From the NCBI RefSeq assembly GCF_003790525.1, contig NZ_CP033635.1: DNA of 64,000 bases; one strand, written 5' to 3'. The position numbers and the translations under genes were made by a program. Of this stretch, positions 51,794 through 63,402 are shown piece after piece. The stretch comes from Escherichia coli (lineage in GTDB: Bacteria; Pseudomonadota; Gammaproteobacteria; Enterobacterales; Enterobacteriaceae). Position 1 is the stretch's first letter, and each line of letters starts with the position of its first letter. The notes beneath the pieces were generated by a model. That model saw only the letters and a list, made by a program, of their open reading frames with translations, was not told the origin of the DNA and made no database searches.

Positions 51794-52603
51794 ATGGCAA
51801 CAACACAACAATCTGGATTTGCACCTGCTGCATCGCCTCTCGCTTCGACCATCGTTCAGACTCCGGACGACGCGATTGTGGCGGGCTTCACCTCTATCCC
51901 TTCACAAGGGGATAACATGCCTGCTTACCATGCCAGACCAAGGCAAAGCGATGGCCCACTGCCAGTGGTCATTGTAGTGCAGGAAATTTTTGGCGTGCAT
52001 GAACATATCCGCGATATTTGTCGCCGTCTGGCGCTGGAGGGGTATCTGGCTATCGCACCTGAACTTTACTTCCGCGAAGGCGATCCGAATGATTTTGCCG
52101 ATATCCCTACGCTGCTTAGCGGTCTGGTAGCAAAAGTGCCTGACTCGCAGGTGCTGGCCGATCTCGATCATGTCGCCAGTTGGGCTTCCCGCAACGGCGG
52201 CGATGTTCATCGTTTAATGATCACCGGATTCTGCTGGGGTGGACGTATCACCTGGCTGTATGCCGCGCATAATCCACAACTGAAAGCAGCGGTGGCATGG
52301 TACGGCAAATTAACCGGCGATAAGACGCTGAATTCACCGAAACAACCTGTTGATATCGCAACCGATCTTAACGCGCCGGTTCTCGGCTTATATGGTGGTC
52401 AGGATAACAGCATTCCGCAAGAGAGTGTGGAAACGATGCGCCAGGCGCTGCGGGCAGCAAACGCGAAAGCAGAGATTATCGTGTACCCGGATGCAGGGCA
52501 TGCGTTCAACGCCGATTATCGTCCGAGCTATCATGCCGAGTCTGCGAAAGACGGCTGGCAGCGAATGTTGGAATGGTTTACACAGTATGGTGTTAAAAAG
52601 TAA
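51794..52603 (+). CDS. ysgA: Dienelactone-hydrolase-family protein
   Basis: Start taken at MATTQQSGFAPAASPLASTIVQT; alpha/beta hydrolase with CWGG nucleophile elbow. Confidence 0.85.
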   Translation: MATTQQSGFAPAASPLASTIVQTPDDAIVAGFTSIPSQGDNMPAYHARPRQSDGPLPVVIVVQEIFGVHEHIRDICRRLALEGYLAIAPELYFREGDPNDFADIPTLLSGLVAKVPDSQVLADLDHVASWASRNGGDVHRLMITGFCWGGRITWLYAAHNPQLKAAVAWYGKLTGDKTLNSPKQPVDIATDLNAPVLGLYGGQDNSIPQESVETMRQALRAANAKAEIIVYPDAGHAFNADYRPSYHAESAKDGWQRMLEWFTQYGVKK

Positions 52604-52669
52604 CGCCATAGTCGCTAAATCTGATGATTAAGCTCACACAATTTCAACGATTTTTTTAATCTCAAAACC

Positions 52670-52698
52670 ATACAGCATCAAAAAATTTGTTGCTGTAT
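52670..52698. promoter_or_regulatory. 8-bp perfect inverted repeat with A/T-rich 13-bp spacer, candidate regulator site upstream of the hydrolase operon
   Basis: atacagca-tcaaaaaatttgt-tgctgtat; a related copy gcaaaaatttcgttgctgt lies at 52747-52765. Confidence 0.45.
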
Positions 52699-52859
52699 GC
52701 CACTCTTTGACTCCCTTCACATTCGTCATCACACCACCTGCTGAATGCAAAAATTTCGTTGCTGTGCGGCAAACTTTTTTCCTGTTTTGTGCCGCTTTTC
52801 TCCTGAATACTCGTTCTCAGAACAACTGGATCGTTTAAACATCAGACAGGAGATTTACC

Positions 52860-53528
52860 ATGACGCAATCCATTTTTCAGGCTCAACCCTTTGAATTACC
52901 TTTTGATCCGCGCACAACTGCACTGGTCATGATCGACATGCAGCGTGACTTTGTCGAAGCAGGGGGCTTCGGTGAGGCACTGGGCAATGATGTTTCACTG
53001 GTACGCACGGCTATCGCACCATGTACAGAGGTGCTGGCAGCCGCACGTCAAAAAGGAATTATGGTTATTCATACTCGTGAAGGCCATCGTGCAGACTTAA
53101 GCGACTGCCCGCCAGCCAAACTGACGCGCGGCGGAAAAACCTTTATTGGTGAACCAGGACCGATGGGACGCATTCTGGTCAGAGGTGAAGCAGGTCATGA
53201 CATCATTCCTGAACTGTACCCGGTGGCAGGCGAACCGGTGATTGATAAGCCTGGCAAAGGCGCGTTTTATCAAACCGACTTACATCTGATTTTGCAAAAC
53301 CACGGTATCAAGACGCTGATAGTTTGTGGTGTTACAACCGAAGTTTGCGTAACCACCACCGTGCGCGAAGCAAATGATCGTGGCTATGAATGCATTATCC
53401 CGGAAGATTGTGTCGGCTCCTATTTCCCGGAATTCCAGAAATACGCCCTCGAGATGATCAAAGCACAAGGTGCCATTTTCGGTTGGGTTACTGATTCCAA
53501 AGCCATTATTGCAGGCCTGGAAGGCTAA
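52860..53528 (+). CDS. Isochorismatase-fold cysteine hydrolase (amidohydrolase; RutB/BiuH/CSHase-like)
   Basis: 222-aa ORF with aggag RBS; motifs ALVMIDMQRDF (Asp) and LIVCGVTTEVCV (catalytic Cys context) typical of this subfamily. Confidence 0.75.
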   Translation: MTQSIFQAQPFELPFDPRTTALVMIDMQRDFVEAGGFGEALGNDVSLVRTAIAPCTEVLAAARQKGIMVIHTREGHRADLSDCPPAKLTRGGKTFIGEPGPMGRILVRGEAGHDIIPELYPVAGEPVIDKPGKGAFYQTDLHLILQNHGIKTLIVCGVTTEVCVTTTVREANDRGYECIIPEDCVGSYFPEFQKYALEMIKAQGAIFGWVTDSKAIIAGLEG

Positions 53529-53533
53529 CACCG

Positions 53534-54394
53534 ATGGTACAGGTTACGCTTTGCGCATCGTCGTTGGGATATCTTTTCCCGCAGAATGAAACGCAAGATT
53601 TACGTCTACATAGCGCTTTTAAACATGCGGTAAATCTGTATTCAGACGCGGGAACATTCATCACTCTGTTGTGTGCGCAAACGTATCTGAATCTCCCTGA
53701 TGCAGCCAGAGTCTGGCTACCTGAATGTTGGGACTGGCGAAGAGAGATTGCCCATTCAGATCCCATTCAGTTAACCCCAGGCTTACTGCGGACACCTCGA
53801 TTTTGTGTGGCGCTCGAAAACGCAACGCTCTGGCAGTCGCCATTTGTGGGGGGAATGCTGACACTTGAGGCATTCCCTTTGGTTTTCCAGCACTACCCAA
53901 CGATGGCATCGCAACGGCTTTTATTTTGTCTGGAACATAACGTTCAAAGCACATTGCACCTGCCGGATAGTCTCACGCACCAGGGATTAGCGATTATGGA
54001 GCATCCAGATGCGCTGGAACGCCAGGTGCCACAACTGATCGGCTTTGGTAAAGGCTTAACGCCCGATGGAGATGACTATTTGTTGGGCTATCTGGCAGCA
54101 CTCTGGTTATGGCAACTCCCTGCACCACTTGCCGATCATCAATACCGGTTGCAGCAGGTAATTGATCAACATGCGCACAACACCACGGATATCAGTCGTC
54201 ATTATCTGGAGCGTGCGCTTCAGGGACATTTTTCAGAACCGATTTGCCAGTTACTCGCACAACTGGTTGGGAGTGCATCGGCAATGACAATCGCATCCTG
54301 TGCAGAACAGGTCATGCAATTTGGCGCAACGTCAGGAGTAGATTGCCTTGCAGGAATGCTGCATGGCTTTCGAACCCTGAACACCATAAATTGA
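53534..54394 (+). CDS. DUF2877-family protein (YahE/YlbF-like)
   Basis: 286-aa ORF starting 5 nt after the preceding stop; resembles YahE / AllH-type proteins that accompany FdrA-like genes (from memory). Confidence 0.6.
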   Translation: MVQVTLCASSLGYLFPQNETQDLRLHSAFKHAVNLYSDAGTFITLLCAQTYLNLPDAARVWLPECWDWRREIAHSDPIQLTPGLLRTPRFCVALENATLWQSPFVGGMLTLEAFPLVFQHYPTMASQRLLFCLEHNVQSTLHLPDSLTHQGLAIMEHPDALERQVPQLIGFGKGLTPDGDDYLLGYLAALWLWQLPAPLADHQYRLQQVIDQHAHNTTDISRHYLERALQGHFSEPICQLLAQLVGSASAMTIASCAEQVMQFGATSGVDCLAGMLHGFRTLNTIN

Positions 54395-54488
54395 TTTCAA
54401 CCTTTTCTCCCGTAGCCCGTTTATGGGGCTACACGGGGATGCTTTGCCCGAATTTTGCTATCGGGCGGAATGAAACAGGCGTAACAGC

Positions 54489-56048
54489 ATGAAAGTTAAA
54501 TATAAAGTTTTCAGTAATCTTTATCAGGACTCAGTTTCTCTGATGCAGATTTCCGCGCAAATCAGCAAGTTGCCCGGTATTCAACAGGCCTCGGTCGTCA
54601 TGGGAACACCCAATAATCTCGAGCAATTGAGCGATGCGGGTCTGGGTAACGAAATCAACGCCAGTCCCAATGATTTAGTGATTGCAGTCATGGGTGAAGA
54701 AGATATTTGCAATGAAGCACTGGTACTGGCCCAGCAACGTCTGACCAGCAAACCCGATGATGAAACGGATAGTGGCATTAAAACACCGGAAAAGGTCAGC
54801 CTGGAAATGGCACTGGAAGCCGAGCCCGAAGCCAACCTGGCACTCATTTCTGTACCGGGAGACTACGCCGCCGCCGAAGCAATTAAAGCGTTAAACCTCG
54901 GAATGAACGTGATGATGTTCAGCGATAACGTCAGTATCGTGCAGGAAAAATCCATCAAAACGCTTGCCCGAGAACGTCAGCGCATCGTAATGGGACCTGA
55001 CTGTGGAACCGCCATTGTTAACGGCATTCCGTTAGGCTTCGCTAATGTGGTGAAACGCGGAGCAATTGGTGTTATTGGCGCGTCAGGCACCGGGCTACAG
55101 GAAGTGACTTGCCGAATCGACCAGCTCGGAGCGGGTATTTCTCAGGCGTTGGGAACAGGCGGACATGATCTCAGTGAAGAGATTGGTGGAATATCGATGC
55201 TCTTCGCTTTAGATGCGCTGGCGCAAGACGATGAAACTCGCGTGATTGTGCTTATTTCAAAACCGCCTTCACCGATCGTTGCCCGGACTATTCTGGAGCG
55301 TGCCGAGGCTTGTGGAAAACCCGTGGTGGTGAATTTCCTCGGTGCGAATCCGCATGATCTGGCACGTCCCAATATCACCGCGGCCACCACACTTGCCAGC
55401 GCCGCAAATATCGCCGTGGCGTTACTGAATGATCAACCACTTCCGACTATCGAGACCGAAATTTCCTGCGACGATCTCACAATGTTACAAAACGCCTGCC
55501 AGCGCCTGCCAGCCCATCGCCAGGCGATACGCGGTGTTTTCGCCGGAGGAACCTTCTGCTACGAAGCGCAACTTATCTGCCAACAAAAGGGATTCAGCGC
55601 AGCCTCCAATACGCCAGTTGCGGGTAATCGTGCTCTGGCAAATATCTGGCAAAGCGAAGATCACACGTTGATCGATATGGGCGACGATGATTTCACCCGT
55701 GGCAAACCGCATCCAATGATCGACCCGACTCTGCGCAATCAACGTCTGCTCAACGAACTCAACGACTCACACACTGCCGTCGTGTTATTCGACCTGGTAC
55801 TTGGTTATGGCGCTTCCACGACGCCTGCCAGCGAATTACTGGACCAACTTTCACACATCGACATGAATAACGCACCGTTGCTGATTGCGCACGTTTGCGG
55901 AACGGAAGCTGATCCGCAAATACGCAGTCAGCAGATAAGCGCACTACAAAATGCAGGGGTCATCATCGCCAGCAGCAATGCACAGGCGGCGTTATGGGCC
56001 AGCACCGTTGCACAGACTCAGTTGCAGAAAAAGGGGCTAAACGCATGA
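54489..56048 (+). CDS. FdrA/YahF-like protein (succinyl-CoA-synthetase-alpha-like, CoA-binding fold)
   Basis: 519-aa ORF with Gly-rich nucleotide/CoA-binding-like segments (VIGASGTGLQEV, GTGGHD). Confidence 0.7.
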   Translation: MKVKYKVFSNLYQDSVSLMQISAQISKLPGIQQASVVMGTPNNLEQLSDAGLGNEINASPNDLVIAVMGEEDICNEALVLAQQRLTSKPDDETDSGIKTPEKVSLEMALEAEPEANLALISVPGDYAAAEAIKALNLGMNVMMFSDNVSIVQEKSIKTLARERQRIVMGPDCGTAIVNGIPLGFANVVKRGAIGVIGASGTGLQEVTCRIDQLGAGISQALGTGGHDLSEEIGGISMLFALDALAQDDETRVIVLISKPPSPIVARTILERAEACGKPVVVNFLGANPHDLARPNITAATTLASAANIAVALLNDQPLPTIETEISCDDLTMLQNACQRLPAHRQAIRGVFAGGTFCYEAQLICQQKGFSAASNTPVAGNRALANIWQSEDHTLIDMGDDDFTRGKPHPMIDPTLRNQRLLNELNDSHTAVVLFDLVLGYGASTTPASELLDQLSHIDMNNAPLLIAHVCGTEADPQIRSQQISALQNAGVIIASSNAQAALWASTVAQTQLQKKGLNA

Positions 56049-57469
56049 ATACCTTATTTAATCAGCCTTTGAAGGTTGTGAACGCGGGACTACACAGTTT
56101 TGCTGACAATATTCAACATGCCGGGGGAAGCGCAATTGCACTCAACTGGCAGCCACCAGCACAAGGCGATATTGACGCTGGATTGGATCTGGCATCGTTG
56201 CTACGTCATCCCCTGGTAGAAAATGCCAACCAAATCGCCATGACACGTTATCTCGAAGCACAGCCCGTGCTGGTGGATGTCATGCTCGCTAAAGAGGCCA
56301 TTCCAGAAATGGCTGAACAAAAACGTATTTTGCACTCTGGCCCGCCGATTGCCTGGGAAGAGATGTGTGGTCCGGTAAAAGGGGCGATTATTGGTGCCAT
56401 GCTGTACGAAGGTTGGGCCACCAGCCAGCAAGACGCTGAAAACCAAATAAACGCAGGCGAAATCGACCTTGCCCCTTGTCATCATTATCACGCGGTTGGC
56501 CCAATGGCAGGCATCATCAGCCCGTCGATGCCGTTATGGGTGGTAGAAAACAAAACCAACGGCCACCGTACTTTTAGCAATTTCAATGAAGGTCTGGGTA
56601 AGGTTCTCCGTTTTGGCGCCAATAACGATGAAGTTCTCAATCGTCTGGCCTGGATGCGCGATGAACTGGCGCCGGCAATGAAAGCAGCAATCGCACAACA
56701 CGGCGAGCTGGAACTCAAGCCATTAATGGCGCAGGCGCTGCATATGGGGGATGAAGTTCATAACCGCAATGCTGCCGCTACCGGTTTGCTGATTAAGCGC
56801 CTGCTCCCGGCATTGCTGGCCTGCTCTCTTCCACAGGAACATATCCAGCGCGTCGTGGCATTTATCACCGGTAACGATCACTTCTTCCTCAATCTTTCGA
56901 TGGCCGCCTGTAAAGCAATGATGGATGCCGCCGCCAATGTACCGTTCAGTTCAATGGTTACGGTGATGGCGCGTAACGGGGTGAATTTTGGTATTCGGCT
57001 TTCCGGTACTGGCGATCGCTGGTTCCAGGCTCCTGCCAATGCCGTTGAAGGTCTGTTCTTCCCCGGATTTGGCGTCGACGATGCCGCTGCTGACCTGGGT
57101 GATAGCGCAATTACTGAAACCGCAGGTGTGGGTGGCTTCGCGATGGCGTCGTCTCCGGCGATCGTCAAATTTGTGGGAGGCACCCCTGCCGATGCCACCA
57201 ATAACAGCCGTCGGATGCAAGCCGTCACCCTCGGCGGTAACCCCGCATTTACACTTCCAGCCCTCAATTTTGCCCCCACCGCAGCAGGGATTGATGCGCG
57301 TAAAGTGACCGATCGCGGCATTTTACCGGTCATCAATACGGGTATCGCCCACAAACAAGCGGGGGTCGGGCAAATTGGTGCCGGGATCACCACTGCGCCG
57401 ATGGCCTGTTTTGTCGCCGCTGTACGTGCACTGGCGGAGATCGTCGCAAAGGAGAACCATCATGGTTAA
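56045..57469 (+). CDS. DUF1116-family protein (YahG/YlbE-like)
   Basis: Start at ATG 56045 overlapping the FdrA-like stop (ATGA); aagggg RBS 8 nt upstream; 474 aa. Confidence 0.65.
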   Translation: MNTLFNQPLKVVNAGLHSFADNIQHAGGSAIALNWQPPAQGDIDAGLDLASLLRHPLVENANQIAMTRYLEAQPVLVDVMLAKEAIPEMAEQKRILHSGPPIAWEEMCGPVKGAIIGAMLYEGWATSQQDAENQINAGEIDLAPCHHYHAVGPMAGIISPSMPLWVVENKTNGHRTFSNFNEGLGKVLRFGANNDEVLNRLAWMRDELAPAMKAAIAQHGELELKPLMAQALHMGDEVHNRNAAATGLLIKRLLPALLACSLPQEHIQRVVAFITGNDHFFLNLSMAACKAMMDAAANVPFSSMVTVMARNGVNFGIRLSGTGDRWFQAPANAVEGLFFPGFGVDDAAADLGDSAITETAGVGGFAMASSPAIVKFVGGTPADATNNSRRMQAVTLGGNPAFTLPALNFAPTAAGIDARKVTDRGILPVINTGIAHKQAGVGQIGAGITTAPMACFVAAVRALAEIVAKENHHG

Positions 57470-58418
57470 GCCACTGGCTGTCGTCGCGGTTGGCGGCAAT
57501 GCGCTCATTCAGGACGAGCAACGCAATAGTATTCCCGATCAATATGTTGCAGTGATGGAAAGCGTGCAGCATATCGTTGATATGGTTGAAGCCGGATGGG
57601 ACCTGGTGCTAACCCACGGTAATGGCCCGCAGGTGGGCTTTATTCTGCGCCGCTCTGAACTCGCCAGTAACGAAGTTTCTCCGGTTCCACTTGATTACGC
57701 CGTGGGTGATACACAAGGTGCAATTGGCTACATGTTCCAGAAAGCACTGCATAACGAATTGGCTCGCCGTGGCATAAACAAACCGGTAATTGCCCTGGTG
57801 ACACAAACGCGAGTCAGCCCACATGACGATGCTTTCGCCAGCCCCAGTAAACCAATTGGCGCGTTTCTCGATGAAGCAACGGCCCAACAACGCCAACAAC
57901 AACTCGGCTGGACGCTGATGGAGGACGCCGGGCGTGGTTGGCGGCGTACAGTTCCCTCTCCTGCCCCACTGGAAGTTATTGAGCACGACACCATCGCTCA
58001 CCTGGTGCGCCAGGGATATCTGGTTATTGCCTGCGGCGGCGGCGGTATTCCGGTGGTGCGAGACGGACAACAACTGAAAGGTGTAGAAGCCGTGATCGAT
58101 AAAGATCTGGCCTCCGCGCTGCTCGCCAGTCAGTTAGGCGCAGATCTGCTGGTGATCCCCACCGGTGTAGAAAAAGTGGCGATTAACTTTGGTACACCAC
58201 AACAACAGTGGCTCGACGCTATCAGCGTTGCCGAAGCGCAAACGCTGTTGCGGGAAGGTCAGTTTGGTGTCGGCAGTATGCAACCCAAAGTGGAAGCCAT
58301 TGTTGATTTCATCAATGCCAGCCAGCAACAAGGCAAACAGGCCAGCGGCCTGATTACTTCACCGCAAACCATAAAAGCAGCCCTGGCGCATCAGAGCGGT
58401 ACATGGATAACCCTTTAA
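57462..58418 (+). CDS. Carbamate kinase
   Basis: Start at ATG 57462 (MVKPLAVVAVGGNALIQ...), aggag RBS; amino-acid-kinase-fold motifs (VLTHGNGPQVG, IACGGGGIPVV); 318 aa. Confidence 0.8.
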   Translation: MVKPLAVVAVGGNALIQDEQRNSIPDQYVAVMESVQHIVDMVEAGWDLVLTHGNGPQVGFILRRSELASNEVSPVPLDYAVGDTQGAIGYMFQKALHNELARRGINKPVIALVTQTRVSPHDDAFASPSKPIGAFLDEATAQQRQQQLGWTLMEDAGRGWRRTVPSPAPLEVIEHDTIAHLVRQGYLVIACGGGGIPVVRDGQQLKGVEAVIDKDLASALLASQLGADLLVIPTGVEKVAINFGTPQQQWLDAISVAEAQTLLREGQFGVGSMQPKVEAIVDFINASQQQGKQASGLITSPQTIKAALAHQSGTWITL

Positions 58419-58434
58419 TTCTCTGGAGAACACA

Positions 58435-58824
58435 ATGACTACAACGCTTTTAGCCGTTAACGGAACGCTGATGCGCGGCCTGGAACTCAACCCAAATATG
58501 CAAAAAGCGGGCGGTATTTTTGTCCGTGAAGACCGAACTGACGCCCATTACCGGTTGTGGAGTATTAATGATCGCCATCCGGGAATGATTCGCGTGAATG
58601 AAGGAGGAACACACGTCGACGTAGAAATTTGGCAATTACCGCTGGCCAGTTTTGCCGCTCTGTTAATGAGCGAACCCGCTGGGCTGGCAATTGGCAAAAT
58701 CAAACTTGCCGATGGTAGCGAAGTGCTGGGCGTACTGGCAGAAAACTGGCTGACCGAAGGCCAACGGGAAATTACAGAACTGGGTAGCTGGCGCAAATAC
58801 ACCGGGCATTTTCATACTGTGTAA
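58435..58824 (+). CDS. AIG2 / gamma-glutamylcyclotransferase-like small protein
   Basis: 129-aa ORF; N-terminal LLAVNGTLMRG resembles the GGCT/AIG2 fold; ggag RBS. Confidence 0.55.
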   Translation: MTTTLLAVNGTLMRGLELNPNMQKAGGIFVREDRTDAHYRLWSINDRHPGMIRVNEGGTHVDVEIWQLPLASFAALLMSEPAGLAIGKIKLADGSEVLGVLAENWLTEGQREITELGSWRKYTGHFHTV

Positions 58825-58849
58825 CGCGCATTTATAAAGGGAACATACT

Positions 58850-60073
58850 ATGCGTAAAAAAGAAGAGAATCTGAATACGGCATCAGGATTGCGTATTGCC
58901 ATGATTTTGCTGGGTATTGCCGTCACACCTGTGCTGTTGTCATCCTCAAGCCTCGGCAATCAACTTTCCAGCGGCAGTTTAATTAGCGTCGTATTGTTAG
59001 GCGGCGTCATTCTGACCTTACTTTCAGCCATCACCATTAGCGTGGGAGAAAAAGCCCGCCTACCAACGTATGGCATTGTGAAATATTCGTTTGGCGAAAA
59101 AGGGGCCATCGCCATTAACATTTTGATGGCGATAAGTCTGTTCGGCTGGATTGCCGTTACCGCCAATATGTTTGGTCATTCGGTACATGACTTACTGGCT
59201 CAACATGGACTGGAAGTTCCACTGGCACTGTTAGTGGCGGCTGGCTGTGTCATTTTTGTCGCCTCTACGGCATTTGGCTTTGCCGTTCTGGGAAAAATTG
59301 CCCAGGTTGCCGTGCCGGTTATCGCGCTGGTGCTGTGTTACATCCTCTATGTGGCAACCCATACCGAAGTGGCAGTACCAGCGGCGATTGTGGAGATGAA
59401 TACAGGTGTCGCCGTTTCCACCGTTGTTGGCACCATTATTGTGCTGGTTGCCACACTGCCTGATTTCGGTAGTTTTGTGCATAACCGCAAACATGCGCTG
59501 ATTGCCGCAGGCGTGACGTTTCTGGTTGCCTACCCTCTGCTCTACTGGGCGGGTGCAACGCCGAGCGCCATTAGTGGTCAGGGATCTTTACTGGGTGCGA
59601 TGGCGGTATTCGGTGCGGTTCTGCCTGCGGCGCTGTTGTTGATTTTCGCCTGCGTCACCGGTAACGCGGGCAATATGTTCCAGGGCACGCTGGTGGTTTC
59701 CACACTGCTTACCCGCTTTCCCAAATGGCAGATTACCGTGGCGCTGGGTATCCTTTCCGCCATCGTAGGCAGTATGGATATTATGGCGTGGTTTATTCCG
59801 TTTCTGCTGTTCCTGGGTATCGCCACGCCACCCGTTGCCGGAATTTATATCGCTGACTTTTTCTTTTATCGCCGTAATGGCTATCAAGAGTCAGTGTTAG
59901 CCCAGGAGTCACAGATTAAAGTGCTGACATTCGCAGCATGGATCATAGGCGCAGCGGTTGGCTTTATGACCGTAAAAGGCTTATTCACCCTGACGACGAT
60001 CCCTTCGGTAGACTCGATTCTGGTGGCATGTATCGCTTATGCGATTCTCAGTCGGGCAAGTCAACACCGCTAA
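58850..60073 (+). CDS. NCS1-family nucleobase:cation symporter (cytosine/hydantoin/allantoin permease-like)
   Basis: 407-aa ORF with about 12 hydrophobic segments; resembles CodB-type permeases. Confidence 0.7.
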   Translation: MRKKEENLNTASGLRIAMILLGIAVTPVLLSSSSLGNQLSSGSLISVVLLGGVILTLLSAITISVGEKARLPTYGIVKYSFGEKGAIAINILMAISLFGWIAVTANMFGHSVHDLLAQHGLEVPLALLVAAGCVIFVASTAFGFAVLGKIAQVAVPVIALVLCYILYVATHTEVAVPAAIVEMNTGVAVSTVVGTIIVLVATLPDFGSFVHNRKHALIAAGVTFLVAYPLLYWAGATPSAISGQGSLLGAMAVFGAVLPAALLLIFACVTGNAGNMFQGTLVVSTLLTRFPKWQITVALGILSAIVGSMDIMAWFIPFLLFLGIATPPVAGIYIADFFFYRRNGYQESVLAQESQIKVLTFAAWIIGAAVGFMTVKGLFTLTTIPSVDSILVACIAYAILSRASQHR

Positions 60074-60150
60074 TTCCTGGGTATACTCAGGCAATGATTA
60101 CGGCTGAATCTGGAGAGATTCAGCCACTTTACCACTGACCAGGAAGCCTT

Positions 60151-61047
60151 ATGTTCATCTCAGACGAAACGCTTCGTGTTATTCATCTGGTCGCCAGACA
60201 CCAGAGCATTACCACCGCAGCCGAGCAGTTAAATAAAGTCCCTTCCGCCATCAGTTACACCATCAAGAAAGCGGAAGAGAGCCTGGGCGTTGAACTGTTC
60301 ATTCGTAAGGGACGCTATATTGAATTATCGCCAGCGGGAAGTTACTTCATCGAACATAGCAAAACTATTCTTGGCGACCTGGAAGCATTAAAGCGCAACA
60401 CAGTGCTGATTCACGATGGTATTGAGCGTGAACTGACAATTGCGGTAAACAATATTATTCCTGGTGATTTGCTGGTGGCATTTATTCGAGATTTTGAACG
60501 GCAATTCACATCAACAACACTGACGGTAGATCTTGAGGTATACAACGGCTGCTGGGATGCGCTGTACAGTAAGCGTGCCGATCTGGTCTACGGTGCTCCT
60601 CATGCAGTGCCAAGCAGTGAAGGCATCATTAGCGAACCGGTCGGACAAATGGAATGGGATTTTGTCGTCAGCCCACTCCACCCACTGGCAGCGAAGCGGC
60701 ATCCATTAGAAAACAGTGAATTGCGTCATTATCCAGCGGTTTGTATCCGCGATACCTCCGTTAACTTCCCCCCGATGCAAGCCTGGTTGTTGGAAGGACA
60801 AAAACCCATTTTTGTTCCTGACTTCGCTACGGCAATCGCCTTAATAGAACAAAACGTCGGTATTGGTTATATTCCACATCATCTGGCATTGCCGTTATTG
60901 AACAGCGGTAAATTGCTTAAAAAGCCAATGCGCGAACATAAACACGCCACCAAGTTATTTCTTGCCGCTCGTTCCGATGGTATGGGCAAAGCCTGTCAGT
61001 GGTGCATAGAATATTTAAGAAATCCGCAATTAATTTTCTGTTCCTGA
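60151..61047 (+). CDS. LysR-family transcriptional regulator
   Basis: 298-aa ORF with N-terminal LysR HTH (LVARHQSITTAAEQLNKVPSAISYTIKKAEESLGVELFIR) and substrate-binding domain. Confidence 0.8.
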   Translation: MFISDETLRVIHLVARHQSITTAAEQLNKVPSAISYTIKKAEESLGVELFIRKGRYIELSPAGSYFIEHSKTILGDLEALKRNTVLIHDGIERELTIAVNNIIPGDLLVAFIRDFERQFTSTTLTVDLEVYNGCWDALYSKRADLVYGAPHAVPSSEGIISEPVGQMEWDFVVSPLHPLAAKRHPLENSELRHYPAVCIRDTSVNFPPMQAWLLEGQKPIFVPDFATAIALIEQNVGIGYIPHHLALPLLNSGKLLKKPMREHKHATKLFLAARSDGMGKACQWCIEYLRNPQLIFCS

Positions 61048-61079
61048 AGATCCACATCATACCTGGCATACATAGCAAA

Positions 61080-61105
61080 ATGGCTTCCGGTGTTGGAAGC
61101 CATTA
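61080..61105. terminator. Bidirectional terminator between the LysR gene and metE
   Basis: Hairpin aatggcttccggtgttggaagccatt. Confidence 0.6.
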
Positions 61106-61140
61106 TTGTGCTGCAATTTACAATGACTCGTTAATACTCA

Positions 61141-63402
61141 TCATCCCCGACGCAAATTCTGCGCCGCCTGCACCATGTTCGCCAGTGCCGCGCGGGTTTC
61201 TGGCCAGCCGCGCGTTTTCAGGCCACAGTCCGGGTTGACCCACAGACGCTCTGCCGGAATGCGTTTTGCCGCTTTCTTCAGCAAGGCTTCAATCCATTCC
61301 ACGCTCGGTACGTTTGGCGAGTGAATGTCATAGACGCCAGGACCGATTTCATTTGGATAATCAAACTCTTCGAACGACTCCAGCAACTCCATGTCGGAAC
61401 GCGAGGTTTCGATGGTGATGACGTCTGCGTCCAGCGCCGCAATCGAATCCATGATGTCGTTGAACTCGCAGTAACACATGTGAGTGTGGATTTGTGTGTC
61501 ATCTTTCGCCACAGCGGCGTTGATACGGAAAGCCTCCACGCCCCACTGGAGATAGGCATCCCAGTCGCTGCGACGCAGTGGTAAACCTTCGCGCAATGCC
61601 GGTTCGTCAATCTGAATGATGCCAATTCCAGCGGCTTCCAGGTCCGCGACTTCATCACGCAGCGCCAGCGCAATTTGTTTGGCGATGGTTTCACGGCTGA
61701 CATCTTCACGCGGGAACGACCAGCAGAGAATAGTCACCGGGCCGGTCAACATCCCTTTCACCGGTTTATCAGTCAGGGATTGCGCATATTTTGCCCACTC
61801 CACGGTAATCGGTGCCGGGCGGCTAACGTCACCAATAACAATCGGTGGCTTCACGCAGCGGGAACCGTAGCTCTGTACCCAACCGTTTTGCGTAAAGACA
61901 AAGCCATCCAGATGCTCGCCAAAGTATTCCACCATGTCATTACGCTCGGCCTCGCCATGTACCAGCACATCCAGTCCCAAACGTTCCTGCTCAACAATGG
62001 CCTGCTTGATATGTTCCGCAATGCCTGTGCGGTAGTTGTTGGCGTCGAGATTACCCTTTTTGAAATCCAGACGCAGGGTACGAATCTCCGTGGTTTGCGG
62101 GAAAGAACCAATCGTGGTGGTCGGCCATGCTGGGAGTTTAAAACGCGCACGCTGGGCTTCAGCACGCACTTCATAGACATTCGCACGCTGACTGTCCTGA
62201 GCGGTGATCGCCGCCAGACGCTTTTCTACTGCCGGATTATGTACACGAGTAGAGTGACGACGCGCCTGAATCGGAGCGCTCCACGCTGCCAGAGCTGCCG
62301 TATCACCACTGTTCAACGCATCGCGCAGCAATGCCAGTTCATGACATTTTTGCAGGGCGAAGGCAAACCAGCTTTTCACTTCTGCATCAAGACGTGTTTC
62401 CACACTCAGGTCAATGGGACTGTGCAGCAGTGAGCAGGAAGATGCCACCCACAAATCACGTTTGCCGACAATGTCCTTAATTTGCGCATATTTCTCGGTA
62501 AGATCGGCGCGCCAGACGTTACGACCATTGATAAGACCCGCAGACAGCAGCCAGTCAGAAGGCAGACGCTTGTGCAGTTCAGCAACGTCATCTTTACCAT
62601 GTACAAGATCGACATGCAGACCCTGAACAGGCAGCGCAGTAATCGTGTCGAGATTTGGTGTTACGCCTTCAAAATAGGTGGTCAGCAGCAGTTTCACCTG
62701 TCCCTGGAGCGCGTCGTAAGCGGGTTTGTATGCGTCCAGCCACGCCTGCGGCAGTTCCAGTACCAGCGCGGGTTCATCAATCTGTACCCACTCGATGCCG
62801 CGTTTCGCCAGTTCTGCCAGCACTTGCTGATAAACCGGCAGAATGTCGTTCAGCAGGCTCAGGCGATCAAACTGTTCACCTTTCACTTTACCCAGCCACA
62901 GGTAGGTAACTGGCCCCAGCAGCACAGGTTTCACCTTGTGGCCCAGCGCCAGCGCCTCGTCCACTTCCTCCAGCAGCTGCGTCCAGGTCAGTTTGAACTG
63001 TTGGCCTTTAACGAACTCCGGCACCATGTAGTGATAGTTGGTGTTAAACCATTTGGTCATTTCCGCTGCCGCCGCAGGTTCGCCAGTCGGTGCACGTCCA
63101 CGACCAATACGGAACAGGGTGTCGATATCTACCGAACCATCGTTGTTCTGGTGACGCGCCGGAACATTACCCAGCAGCAGACTGGTGGTCAGTACATGAT
63201 CGTACCAGGCAAAATCGCCCACCGGCAGCAGGTCGATACCCGCTTGCTTTTGTTGCTCCCAGTGACGAGCACGTAATTCACGCCCTACCGCCAGCAGTTC
63301 TTCACGCGTGGAGTTCCCCGCCCAATAACTCTCTTGCGCTTTTTTCAGCTCGCGACGCAGGCCAACGCGAGGGAAACCGAGGGTGTGATTAAGAATTGTC
63401 AT
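61141..63402 (-). CDS. metE: Cobalamin-independent methionine synthase
   Basis: 753-aa [33 protein letters not shown]... Confidence 0.96.

What the first reader, a model, noticed from the sequence alone, without database searches (positions are those of the whole stretch)
56045..57469. Overlapping start/stop codons link the FdrA-like, DUF1116 and carbamate kinase genes
The FdrA-like stop and DUF1116 start overlap as ATGA (56045-56048), and the DUF1116 gene overlaps the carbamate kinase start by 8 nt (57462-57469), each with a well-spaced Shine-Dalgarno. Such coupling is typical of subunits made in fixed stoichiometry, so the three products may act as one complex that channels carbamoyl phosphate.
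Basis: partly seen in the sequence, partly recalled or inferred. Interest (0 to 1): 0.35.

Follow-up and report, generated by a model that had tools for sequence, protein, structure and literature searches.

The report
Ordinary operon overlaps in carbamoyltransferase–kinase island
The two stop/start overlaps are real but are the commonest kind of junction in bacterial operons. They join the two core subunits of an AllFGH-type carbamoyltransferase to the carbamate kinase that uses its product, and nothing shows that the kinase belongs to the complex.

Summary
ATGA at 56045-56048 joins the fdrA-like stop to the DUF1116 start. The DUF1116 gene and the carbamate kinase gene share 8 nt (57462-57469). 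Both junctions have well-spaced Shine-Dalgarno sites, and RefSeq annotation and homologue N-termini agree on the starts.

The window is E. coli SMS-3-5. The genes lie in an 8-gene accessory island, present in 1559 of 5426 E. coli genomes and on 82 conjugative plasmids. It is a third E. coli paralogue of allFGHK and yahEFG-I.

- **FdrA-like (F) and DUF1116 (G) are one enzyme.** They are adjacent in all 76 loci with enough sequence. They are fused into one protein in some lineages. A roughly 45-residue module sits on either side of their boundary in different lineages. K-12 AllF and AllG co-purify.
- **The known third subunit is DUF2877, not the kinase.** Its gene lies upstream, 94 nt away.
- **The kinase looks like the next pathway enzyme.** The K-12 paralogue is active alone. 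A kinase gene is missing next to G in 30 of 80 loci, and an acetate-kinase-family gene takes its place in one clade.

Such overlaps are weak evidence of a complex: only about 30% of such E. coli pairs encode one. A side lead: the island's hydrolase has every triuret-hydrolase signature residue, so its substrate may not be oxalurate.

The parts
52860..53528 (+). Cysteine hydrolase of the isochorismatase family, TrtA (triuret hydrolase)-like. First gene of the island.
   Evidence: Pfam Isochorismatase. Best NCBIfam model is BiuH, 280 bits and below its cutoff, well above RutB at 112. Closest solved structures are 6XIX/6XJ4 (271 bits), then BiuH 6AZO/6XJM (about 235). All six TrtA-versus-BiuH discriminating residues are TrtA-type.
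53534..54394 (+). DUF2877 / AllH-like protein. The likely third subunit of the carbamoyltransferase.
   Evidence: Pfam PF11392 AllH, 95 bits. 26-33% identical to YahE and AllH. An HMM finds a homologue in 44 of 80 loci, in 35 of them directly upstream of F.
54395..54488 (+). 94-nt spacer between the DUF2877 and fdrA-like genes, with two predicted hairpins. This junction is not overlapped.
   Evidence: Folding of 54392-54491 (the spacer plus a few flanking bases) gives MFE -34.2 kcal/mol, z = -2.5 against shuffles. No consensus terminator was called there.
54489..56048 (+). FdrA / AllF-like subunit (519 aa).
   Evidence: Pfam CoA_binding + Ligase_CoA. NCBIfam PRK06091, 496 bits against a cutoff of 433. 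40% identical to AllF and 42% to YahF. Matches PDB 3DMY.
56033..56036 (+). Shine-Dalgarno-like GGGG, 8 nt before the DUF1116 start and inside the fdrA-like coding sequence.
   Evidence: Read directly from the sequence.
56045..56048 (+). ATGA stop/start overlap between the fdrA-like and DUF1116 genes.
   Evidence: The same geometry holds in the plasmid allele at about 95% identity. The -4 overlap occurs in 21 of 71 homologous F->G junctions.
56045..57469 (+). DUF1116 / AllG-like subunit (474 aa, long form).
   Evidence: Pfam PF06545 AllG, 330 bits. 49% identical to AllG and 46% to YahG. Matches PDB 3CLQ over residues 57-465.
56069..56170 (+). Boundary module (G residues 9-42, predicted beta-alpha-beta). 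It lies at the N-terminus of G here and in YahG, at the C-terminus of K-12 AllF and in L082, as a free-standing 56-aa ORF in L083, and internally in F-G fusion proteins.
   Evidence: NCBIfam FdrA model positions 508-544 match G residues 6-42. BLAST of the AllF C-terminus against the G N-terminus. tblastn and direct reading of L082 and L083. The 3DMY chain contains the module. Secondary structure.
57449..57454 (+). Shine-Dalgarno AAGGAG, 7 nt before the carbamate kinase start and inside the DUF1116 coding sequence.
   Evidence: Read directly from the sequence.
57462..57469 (+). 8-nt overlap ATGGTTAA between the DUF1116 stop (TAA 57467-69) and the carbamate kinase start (ATG 57462-64).
   Evidence: Homologous G->K junctions are -4 in 17 of 50 and -8 in 2 of 50.
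57462..58418 (+). Carbamate kinase (318 aa).
   Evidence: NCBIfam TIGR00746 arcC equivalog, 364 bits against a cutoff of 358; PRK12352, 377 bits. 48% identical to YahI and 38% to AllK.
58435..58824 (+). Stand-alone allophanate-hydrolase C-terminal domain protein (129 aa).
   Evidence: Pfam PF21986 AH_C, 142 bits. Found fused to carbamate kinase in a 458-aa protein family with 22 members.
58850..60073 (+). NCS1-family (cytosine permease-like) transporter.
   Evidence: Pfam PF02133. NCBIfam cytosine permease, 146 bits and below its cutoff.
60151..61047 (+). LysR-family regulator, the last gene of the island. Nearest models are PunR and AllS.

Best explanation
The two overlaps are ordinary compact-operon junctions inside a horizontally mobile, 8-gene nitrogen-catabolic island of E. 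coli. The gene order is: TrtA-like hydrolase, DUF2877/AllH-like, FdrA/AllF-like, DUF1116/AllG-like, carbamate kinase, stand-alone allophanate-hydrolase C-domain, NCS1 permease, LysR regulator.

Shown:
- The genes and their starts.
- The island is a third E. coli paralogue of allFGHK and yahEFG-I.
- F and G are an obligate pair. They are always adjacent, sometimes fused, and a module migrates across their boundary.

Inferred from the K-12 paralogue: F+G, with the DUF2877 protein, form a heteromeric carbamoyltransferase. It cleaves an N-carbamoyl amide with phosphate to give carbamoyl phosphate. The kinase then converts carbamoyl phosphate + ADP to ATP + carbamate, which breaks down to NH3 + CO2.

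Inferred from junction geometry: a ribosome terminating on fdrA can reinitiate at the ATGA, keeping G in step with F. The same can happen at the 8-nt G/kinase overlap. Each downstream start also has its own good Shine-Dalgarno site, so independent initiation is possible too. The ATGA at 56045 is one of at least three alternative places where lineages have split what is a single F-module-G polypeptide elsewhere. The kinase is the next pathway enzyme, an exchangeable downstream module, and not a demonstrated subunit.
For: - Sequence and annotation.
- Family assignments.
- Paralogy at 38-49% identity for F, G and K, and 26-33% for the DUF2877 protein.
- Biochemistry of the K-12 paralogue. AllFGH is oxamate carbamoyltransferase and AllG co-purifies with tagged AllF (PMC11326118). 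allFGHK is co-transcribed and AllK is active alone (PMC9843812).
- F-G adjacency in 76 of 76 usable loci, with 62 of 71 junctions at 25 nt or less.
- F-G fusions. Nine clusters of about 1015 aa, 44-63% identical to P0185, carry Ligase_CoA + AllG domains. One of them is identical on 11 contigs from several samples.
- Module in three or four configurations.
- Kinase is facultative or exchangeable. It is absent in 30 of 80 loci, and an acetate-kinase-family gene follows the fused F-G with a 4-nt overlap.
- Base rates for overlaps: and the window count.
Against: - No experiment exists on this island. Co-transcription, coupling, complex formation and substrate are all inferred from paralogues at 40-49% identity.
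- The DUF2877 gene was not detected in about 23 loci that have upstream sequence, so its status as a universal subunit is uncertain. In K-12 it bound only weakly.
- Strong Shine-Dalgarno sites at both junctions mean coupling may contribute little.
- The AlphaFold F+G pseudo-fusion was only moderately confident (pTM 0.62). Its F part superposed poorly on 3DMY.
- Genomic context (no allC, allD or allE; a TrtA-like hydrolase instead) argues that the substrate is not oxalurate. The exact reaction is therefore unknown.
Confidence: 0.8

Rival explanations
1. One reading: FdrA-like, DUF1116 and carbamate kinase assemble into one stoichiometric complex. Carbamoyl phosphate is handed directly from the transferase to the kinase, and the overlaps exist to fix that stoichiometry.
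For: - Both junctions fall in the -8..+10 window, which is enriched 4.5-fold for complex subunits in E. coli.
- The kinase directly follows G in 50 of 80 loci, and 20 of those junctions overlap.
- Carbamoyl phosphate is labile, and channelling between a carbamate kinase-like enzyme and ornithine carbamoyltransferase has been reported in Pyrococcus (my own recollection, not checked here).
Against: - AllK of K-12 purifies alone and is active, and AllFGH is active without it.
- The known third subunit is DUF2877.
- The kinase is absent from 30 of 80 loci and replaced by an acetate-kinase-family gene in the fusion clade.
- No reliable G-K or K-F fusion exists, whereas F-G and kinase::AH_C fusions are recurrent.
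- The G+K pseudo-fusion gave pTM 0.55 despite a higher pLDDT than F+G.
- About 70% of such junctions in E. coli are not complexes.
Confidence: 0.12
2. The overlaps have no regulatory role. They are neutral by-products of start and stop codon drift in a compact operon, and each gene is initiated independently from its own Shine-Dalgarno site.
For: - The exact geometry is not conserved even among close orthologues. Serratia and Edwardsiella have -4/-4. Caballeronia and Burkholderia have +10 and +18 or +19. Budvicia has +11/-4.
- K-12 allF-allG is +9 and yahF-yahG is -1.
- Both downstream starts have good, well-spaced SD sites.
Against: - 87% of F->G junctions lie within 25 nt and 41% overlap, far tighter than typical operon spacing.
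- Short overlaps were shown experimentally to give strict coupling in tested E. coli pairs (PMC10666635).
Confidence: 0.2
3. The true starts lie elsewhere (ATG 55994 for DUF1116, TTG 57375 for the kinase). The genes would then overlap by 55 and 95 nt, not 4 and 8.
For: Both are in-frame start codons after the upstream stop. A weak AGG lies 7 nt before 55994.
Against: - The N-termini of YahG, YahI and AllK and of about 70 orthologues align from the annotated starts.
- The extensions are not conserved.
- PGAP chose 56045 and 57462.
- The SD sites are much better at the annotated starts.
Confidence: 0.03

Closest known systems
E. coli K-12 allFGHK operon (fdrA-ylbE-ylbF-ybcF): oxamate carbamoyltransferase AllFGH plus catabolic carbamate kinase AllK
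   Same: The same four protein families sit in one operon. F directly precedes G. A kinase is coupled by a 4-nt overlap to the preceding gene (ylbF/ybcF). The pathway logic is a carbamoyl-phosphate-yielding cleavage followed by ATP formation.
   Different: - Only 38-49% identity, and 33% over 110 residues for the DUF2877 protein.
- Gene order is F-G-H-K there and H-F-G-K here.
- allF/allG are separated by 9 nt.
- The boundary module is on AllF (555 aa) with a short AllG (419 aa). Here F is 519 aa and G is 474 aa.
- K-12 neighbours are allE, allC and allD (allantoin pathway). Here they are a TrtA-like hydrolase, AH_C and an NCS1 permease.
- The substrate here is untested.
E. coli K-12 yahE-yahF-yahG-(yahH)-yahI cluster (uncharacterised paralogue)
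   Same: Same gene order H-F-G...K. Long-form G with the module at its N-terminus. The F/G stop and start overlap (TGATG, -1). 42-48% identity for F, G and K, and 26% for the DUF2877 protein.
   Different: yahG and yahI are 421 nt apart, so there is no G/K coupling. The neighbours are YahD (ankyrin) and YahJ (amidohydrolase). There is no TrtA-like hydrolase or AH_C.
Translationally coupled overlapping gene pairs (termination-reinitiation at ATGA / TGATG)
   Same: Co-directional genes, overlaps of 4 and 8 nt within the -8..+10 window, and the SD inside the upstream coding sequence.
   Different: Coupling was not measured here. Both downstream genes have SD sites strong enough for independent initiation.
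Triuret/biuret pathway TrtA-TrtB-BiuH-AtzF (Herbaspirillum; PMC7948467), and the biuH/trtA + allFGHK co-location noted in comammox Nitrospira and ammonia-oxidising archaea (PMC12625717)
   Same: The first island gene has the TrtA catalytic and discriminating residues. An allophanate-hydrolase C-domain is present. TrtA-type hydrolases accompany F-G(-K) in many phyla.
   Different: No TrtB, BiuH or amidase domain of allophanate hydrolase is present. The AllFGH-like enzyme and carbamate kinase stand where those steps would be.
NDP-forming acyl-CoA synthetase / succinyl-CoA synthetase alpha superfamily
   Same: The F subunit has the CoA_binding + Ligase_CoA fold. Fold and sequence matches to SCS alpha, ACD and ATP-citrate lyase.
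   Different: The characterised AllFGH reaction uses no CoA. The G subunit (3CLQ fold) has no counterpart among those enzymes' solved chains in this search.

Membership tests
Overlapping, translationally coupled gene pair | Co-directional genes with stop/start overlap or a distance of -8..+10 nt | tested here: met
   -4 at 56045-56048 and -8 at 57462-57469.
Overlapping, translationally coupled gene pair | Start codon position supported independently of the ORF call | tested here: met
   Paralogue and orthologue N-termini align from these starts. PGAP agrees.
Overlapping, translationally coupled gene pair | Downstream translation depends on upstream translation | not testable with these tools
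   Needs reporter fusions with premature stops, or ribosome profiling.
AllFGH-type oxamate carbamoyltransferase | FdrA/AllF-type subunit | tested here: met
   NCBIfam PRK06091, 496 bits against a cutoff of 433. Pfam PF02629 + PF00549.
AllFGH-type oxamate carbamoyltransferase | AllG (DUF1116) subunit encoded next to F | tested here: met
   PF06545, 330 bits. Adjacent, with a 4-nt overlap.
AllFGH-type oxamate carbamoyltransferase | AllH (DUF2877) subunit in the same operon | tested here: met
   PF11392, 95 bits, gene 53534-54394. Co-transcription was not tested.
AllFGH-type oxamate carbamoyltransferase | Physical F-G association | tested here: inconclusive
   Indirect support is strong: fusions, module migration and K-12 co-purification. 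The direct test by AlphaFold pseudo-fusion gave only pTM 0.62, with no PAE available.
AllFGH-type oxamate carbamoyltransferase | Genomic link to the allantoin/oxalurate pathway (allD, allC, allE) | tested here: not met
   Neighbours are a TrtA-like hydrolase, AH_C, an NCS1 permease and LysR. The island is inserted between ysgA and metE.
AllFGH-type oxamate carbamoyltransferase | Oxalurate + Pi <-> oxamate + carbamoyl phosphate activity | not testable with these tools
   An enzyme assay is needed.
Carbamate kinase (ArcC/AllK) | Scores above the curated equivalog cutoff | tested here: met
   TIGR00746, 364.4 bits against 358.25. PRK12352, 376.7 against 266.
   Kinase is absent within 6 kb in 30 of 80 loci. 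An acetate-kinase-family gene takes that position in the fusion clade. Candidate G-K and K-F fusions were rejected as assembly artefacts.
Triuret hydrolase TrtA (first island gene) | Catalytic D/K/C triad plus the six positions that separate TrtA from BiuH (F35 N41 A134 E160 Y187 I205) | tested here: met
   All are identical to TrtA 6XIX and differ from BiuH 6AZO (Y Y S D T V). Activity was not tested.

The most novel reading that the evidence does not exclude
The island is not an oxalurate system. It is an ATP-yielding route for triuret or related polyureas.
- The TrtA-like hydrolase makes carboxybiuret.
- The AllFGH-like enzyme cleaves carboxybiuret and/or allophanate with phosphate. Both are N-carbamoyl amides that resemble oxalurate. 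The product is carbamoyl phosphate.
- Carbamate kinase harvests ATP.
- The stand-alone AH_C domain handles the remaining N-carboxy product or acts as a scaffold.

This would replace TrtB, BiuH and AtzF. It would explain why TrtA-type hydrolases, AH_C and urea- or cytosine-type transporters travel with F-G-K across phyla.
Probability: 0.3. Interest if true: 0.6.

Novelty: new member of a known kind. Interest (0 to 1): 0.3.

Why it matters
The overlaps themselves do not matter much. They are the default architecture of tight operons and predict a complex only about one time in three.

Three by-products have modest value.
- **The F|G boundary module.** It is mobile, and real F-G fusions exist. 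Together these identify which element probably docks the two core subunits of the recently discovered AllFGH carbamoyltransferase. Its quaternary structure is still unsolved.
- **The kinase is exchangeable.** Carbamate kinase or an acetate-kinase-family enzyme can follow F-G. This suggests a general design: the F-G enzyme makes an acyl or carbamoyl phosphate, and the next gene's kinase makes ATP from it.
- **A testable island.** About 29% of complete E. coli genomes and 82 conjugative plasmids carry an uncharacterised third copy of this system, linked to a TrtA-type hydrolase. That points to a simple growth phenotype: triuret or biuret as nitrogen source.

Tried and rejected
- **Alternative start codons** (55994, 57375): rejected on homology.
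- **Promoter and terminator scan of 52500-61200**: counts at or below shuffled expectation, and nothing at the junctions.
- **Rfam scan of 52400-61300**: only two sub-threshold hits. The fluoride aptamer hit is antisense inside DUF1116 (E = 0.05, 20 bits against a gathering score of 34). The other is Mu-gpT-DE (E = 0.76). Both are treated as chance.
- **Repeat search**: no flanking direct repeats define the island.
- **AlphaFold2 pseudo-fusions with locus-paired alignments of 16-17 sequences**: F+G gave pTM 0.62 and G+linker+K gave 0.55. No PAE or coordinates were available, so this is weak evidence.
- **Foldseek of the F+G model against PDB**: found only the separate 3DMY and 3CLQ chains and SCS/ACD/ACLY alpha-type folds. 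No template covers both halves, and the F half fits 3DMY poorly (TM 0.54).
- **Candidate Rosetta stones for the kinase.** Both rejected contigs carry neighbouring genes broken into fragments.
  - P0197 (G-K, 775 aa) sits on a contig where fdrA itself is split into two genes.
  - P0170 (K-F, 840 aa) sits on a contig of the same kind, with no DUF1116 gene next to it.
  - P0219 and P0253 also span the G/K junction but are single, unexamined sequences.
- **Caveat on the F-G fusions.** The first ones seen were singletons at 90% clustering, and representatives may be the longest cluster members. The claim therefore rests on the P0185 clade and on P0286 being found on 11 contigs.


Full report
**What is in the sequence.** The fdrA-like ORF (54489-56048) ends in TGA at 56046-56048. 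The DUF1116 ORF begins at ATG 56045, giving ATGA. The DUF1116 ORF ends in TAA at 57467-57469. The carbamate kinase ORF begins at ATG 57462, so 8 nt are shared. GGGG at 56033-36 lies 8 nt before the first start. AAGGAG at 57449-54 lies 7 nt before the second.

The region is 100% identical to E. coli SMS-3-5, and RefSeq annotates exactly these coordinates. Earlier in-frame starts exist (ATG 55994, TTG 57375). Three lines of evidence fit the annotated starts: the N-termini of YahG (MSQSLFSQPLNVINVG...) and of YahI/AllK, and those of about 70 orthologues.

**How unusual it is.** By hand count from the annotation, 6 of 37 same-strand neighbouring CDS pairs in this window overlap. Four of them are elsewhere in the window (dgoK/dgoA-like, ubiJ/ubiB, pepQ/yigZ, mobA/mobB). 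Real complexes in the same window (tatABC, fadBA) are separated by 2-9 nt.

A genome-wide study counted 820 E. coli pairs at -8..+10 nt. Of these, 30.4% encode heteromeric complexes, against 6.8% at >20 nt (PMC10666635). A short overlap therefore raises the odds of a complex about 4.5-fold, but about 70% of such pairs are not complexes.

**What the genes are.** The window carries an 8-gene island between ysgA and metE:

| Coordinates | Product |
|---|---|
| 52860-53528 | cysteine hydrolase |
| 53534-54394 | DUF2877/AllH |
| 54489-56048 | FdrA/AllF-like (F) |
| 56045-57469 | DUF1116/AllG (G) |
| 57462-58418 | carbamate kinase (K) |
| 58435-58824 | stand-alone allophanate-hydrolase C-domain (AH_C) |
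| 58850-60073 | NCS1 permease |
| 60151-61047 | LysR regulator |

The island is present in 1559 of 5426 complete E. coli genomes. It is also on 82 conjugative plasmids at about 95% identity, with the same junction geometry.

Its F, G and K proteins are 38-49% identical to both K-12 sets, allFGHK and yahEFG-I. The DUF2877 protein is 26-33% identical. The island is therefore a third paralogue. A 2026 comparative genomics paper lists the region as GR 29, without functional work.

**What is known about the family.**
- AllF+AllG+AllH of K-12 are the long-sought oxamate carbamoyltransferase, which converts oxalurate + Pi to carbamoyl phosphate + oxamate.
- Untagged AllG co-purifies with His-AllF, and AllH binds more weakly (PMC11326118).
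- AllK is a catabolic carbamate kinase that was purified alone and is active.
- The four genes are co-transcribed (PMC9843812).

**Comparative test of the junctions.** I fetched 80 loci encoding DUF1116 homologues at 48-84% identity from many phyla.
- F lies directly upstream of G in 76 loci. The other four are cut by a contig end.
- Of 71 measurable F->G junctions, 29 overlap (21 at -4) and 33 lie at 0-25 nt.
- A kinase follows G in 50 of 80 loci. Of those junctions, 20 overlap and 19 lie at 0-25 nt. The other 30 loci have no kinase gene within 6 kb.
- Exact geometry drifts among close relatives. Serratia and Edwardsiella have -4/-4. Caballeronia has +10/+19. K-12 allF/allG is +9 and yahF/yahG is -1.

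**The F|G boundary is mobile.** The last roughly 45 residues of K-12 AllF (VINIGLRSFALELQS...VVHYQWSP...) are homologous to the first roughly 45 residues of the island G protein and of YahG.
- The NCBIfam FdrA model (positions 508-544) hits G residues 6-42.
- Direct BLAST confirms the match.
- A Bacillota locus (L082) has the AllF-type arrangement.
- A Firmicutes locus (L083) encodes the module as a free-standing 56-codon ORF with its own GGAGG, between F and a short G.

An exhaustive search of 1.84 billion representative proteins with the F C-terminal part+G+K found proteins of about 1000 aa. They align in one stretch across the F|G junction and carry CoA_binding, Ligase_CoA and AllG domains.

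These first hits were singletons at 90% clustering, so I checked one clade. Nine clusters of 1012-1019 aa are 44-63% identical to P0185 and share the architecture. One protein (P0286) is encoded identically on 11 contigs from several samples. The fusions are therefore real. The ATGA at 56045 is one of at least three alternative break points in what is a single polypeptide elsewhere. That is strong indirect evidence that F and G work as one enzyme.

**The kinase.** I found no comparable evidence for the kinase.
- The G-K and K-F 'fusions' in the same search sit on contigs with neighbouring genes broken into fragments. In one, fdrA itself is split in two. I rejected them.
- In the fused F-G clade the next gene, overlapping by 4 nt, is of the acetate kinase family. 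This suggests that a kinase taking the phosphorylated product is an exchangeable downstream step.
- A recurrent fusion does exist between carbamate kinase and the AH_C domain (458 aa, 22 members). It lies in an operon of hydrolase, F, G, K::AH_C and a urea-transporter-family gene, and the F->G, G->K::AH_C and K::AH_C->transporter junctions are all -4.
- AlphaFold2 on locus-paired pseudo-fusions gave pTM 0.62 for F+G and 0.55 for G+linker+K. The second value is about what two independent bodies give. Without PAE, and with only 16-17 sequences, this is weak evidence.

**Verdict on the interpretation.** It is partly supported. F and G are subunits, which was already known for the paralogue. The third subunit is probably the DUF2877 protein. 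Its gene is not overlapped: it lies 94 nt upstream, across a spacer with two predicted hairpins. The kinase is best read as the next enzyme in the pathway. Channelling is not excluded.

**Side lead.** The island hydrolase is closest to the solved triuret hydrolase TrtA (6XIX, 271 bits), ahead of BiuH (about 235) and RutB (105). It carries all six residues that separate TrtA from BiuH. Of 34 hydrolases found next to F-G in other phyla, 28 are TrtA-type.

The island has no TrtB, no BiuH and no amidase domain of allophanate hydrolase. A 2025 paper noted trtA/biuH next to allFGHK in comammox Nitrospira that lack trtB, and read this as two separate pathways (PMC12625717). An alternative is that the AllFGH-like enzyme acts on carboxybiuret or allophanate, which are oxalurate analogues. 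This is untested, and I rate it at about 0.3.

**Scores.** The finding as stated is ordinary. The system is a new, uncharacterised member of a known kind. Interest is 0.3.

Noticed in passing
window 52860-53528; L004-L077: The island's cysteine hydrolase has every TrtA (triuret hydrolase) signature residue. TrtA-type hydrolases accompany F-G(-K) in Proteobacteria, Mycobacterium, Chloroflexi and Firmicutes: 28 of 34 are TrtA-type, 5 carry a Firmicutes variant (FNAHCFQI), and 1 is BiuH-type. The island has no BiuH, TrtB or AtzF amidase.
   Followed up: partly
window ~52846-61031: The whole 8-gene island is a discrete mobile unit. It is present in 1559 of 5426 complete E. coli genomes, inserted between ysgA and metE. 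It is also on 82 conjugative plasmids (78 Escherichia, 4 Klebsiella) at about 94.5-95% identity; the one plasmid examined (pEC5931-1) is IncF-type.
   Followed up: partly
L088 5199-6575 (P0281/P0155): Carbamate kinase is fused to the allophanate-hydrolase C-domain in a 458-aa protein family (22 members). The gene lies in an operon of hydrolase, F, G, K::AH_C and a urea-transporter-family gene. The F->G, G->K::AH_C and K::AH_C->transporter junctions are all 4-nt overlaps. This links the small protein at window 58435-58824 functionally to the kinase.
   Followed up: partly
L089-L091 5001-9259 (P0286): A clade of fused F-G proteins (about 1015 aa) is followed, with a 4-nt overlap, by an acetate-kinase-family gene and then an aldehyde:ferredoxin oxidoreductase, and is preceded by transketolase-like subunits. 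This family member probably makes an acyl phosphate other than carbamoyl phosphate.
   Followed up: no
L083 5993-6163: A free-standing 56-codon ORF with its own Shine-Dalgarno site encodes the F|G boundary module, between fdrA and a short-form DUF1116 gene. Such a small gene is easily missed by annotation.
   Followed up: yes
window 54395-54488: The DUF2877-fdrA spacer folds into two hairpins; folding 54392-54491 gives -34.2 kcal/mol, z = -2.5. This could set a lower DUF2877:F ratio or stabilise the mRNA. No consensus terminator was called there.
   Followed up: partly
window 52669-52699: A near-perfect 14-nt inverted repeat (CATACAGCATCAAA / TTTGTTGCTGTATG) lies in the 256-nt region upstream of the island's first gene. 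It is a candidate operator for the island's LysR regulator.
   Followed up: no
window 56501-56576 (- strand): A sub-threshold Rfam hit to the fluoride riboswitch aptamer (20 bits against a gathering score of 34, E = 0.05), antisense inside the DUF1116 gene. Most likely chance.
   Followed up: no
loci L012-L015, L033, L008, L034: Some loci with ample upstream sequence (Mycobacterium, two Caballeronia) show hydrolase-F-G-K with no detectable DUF2877 gene. Either the protein is too divergent to detect, or the third subunit is dispensable there.
   Followed up: no
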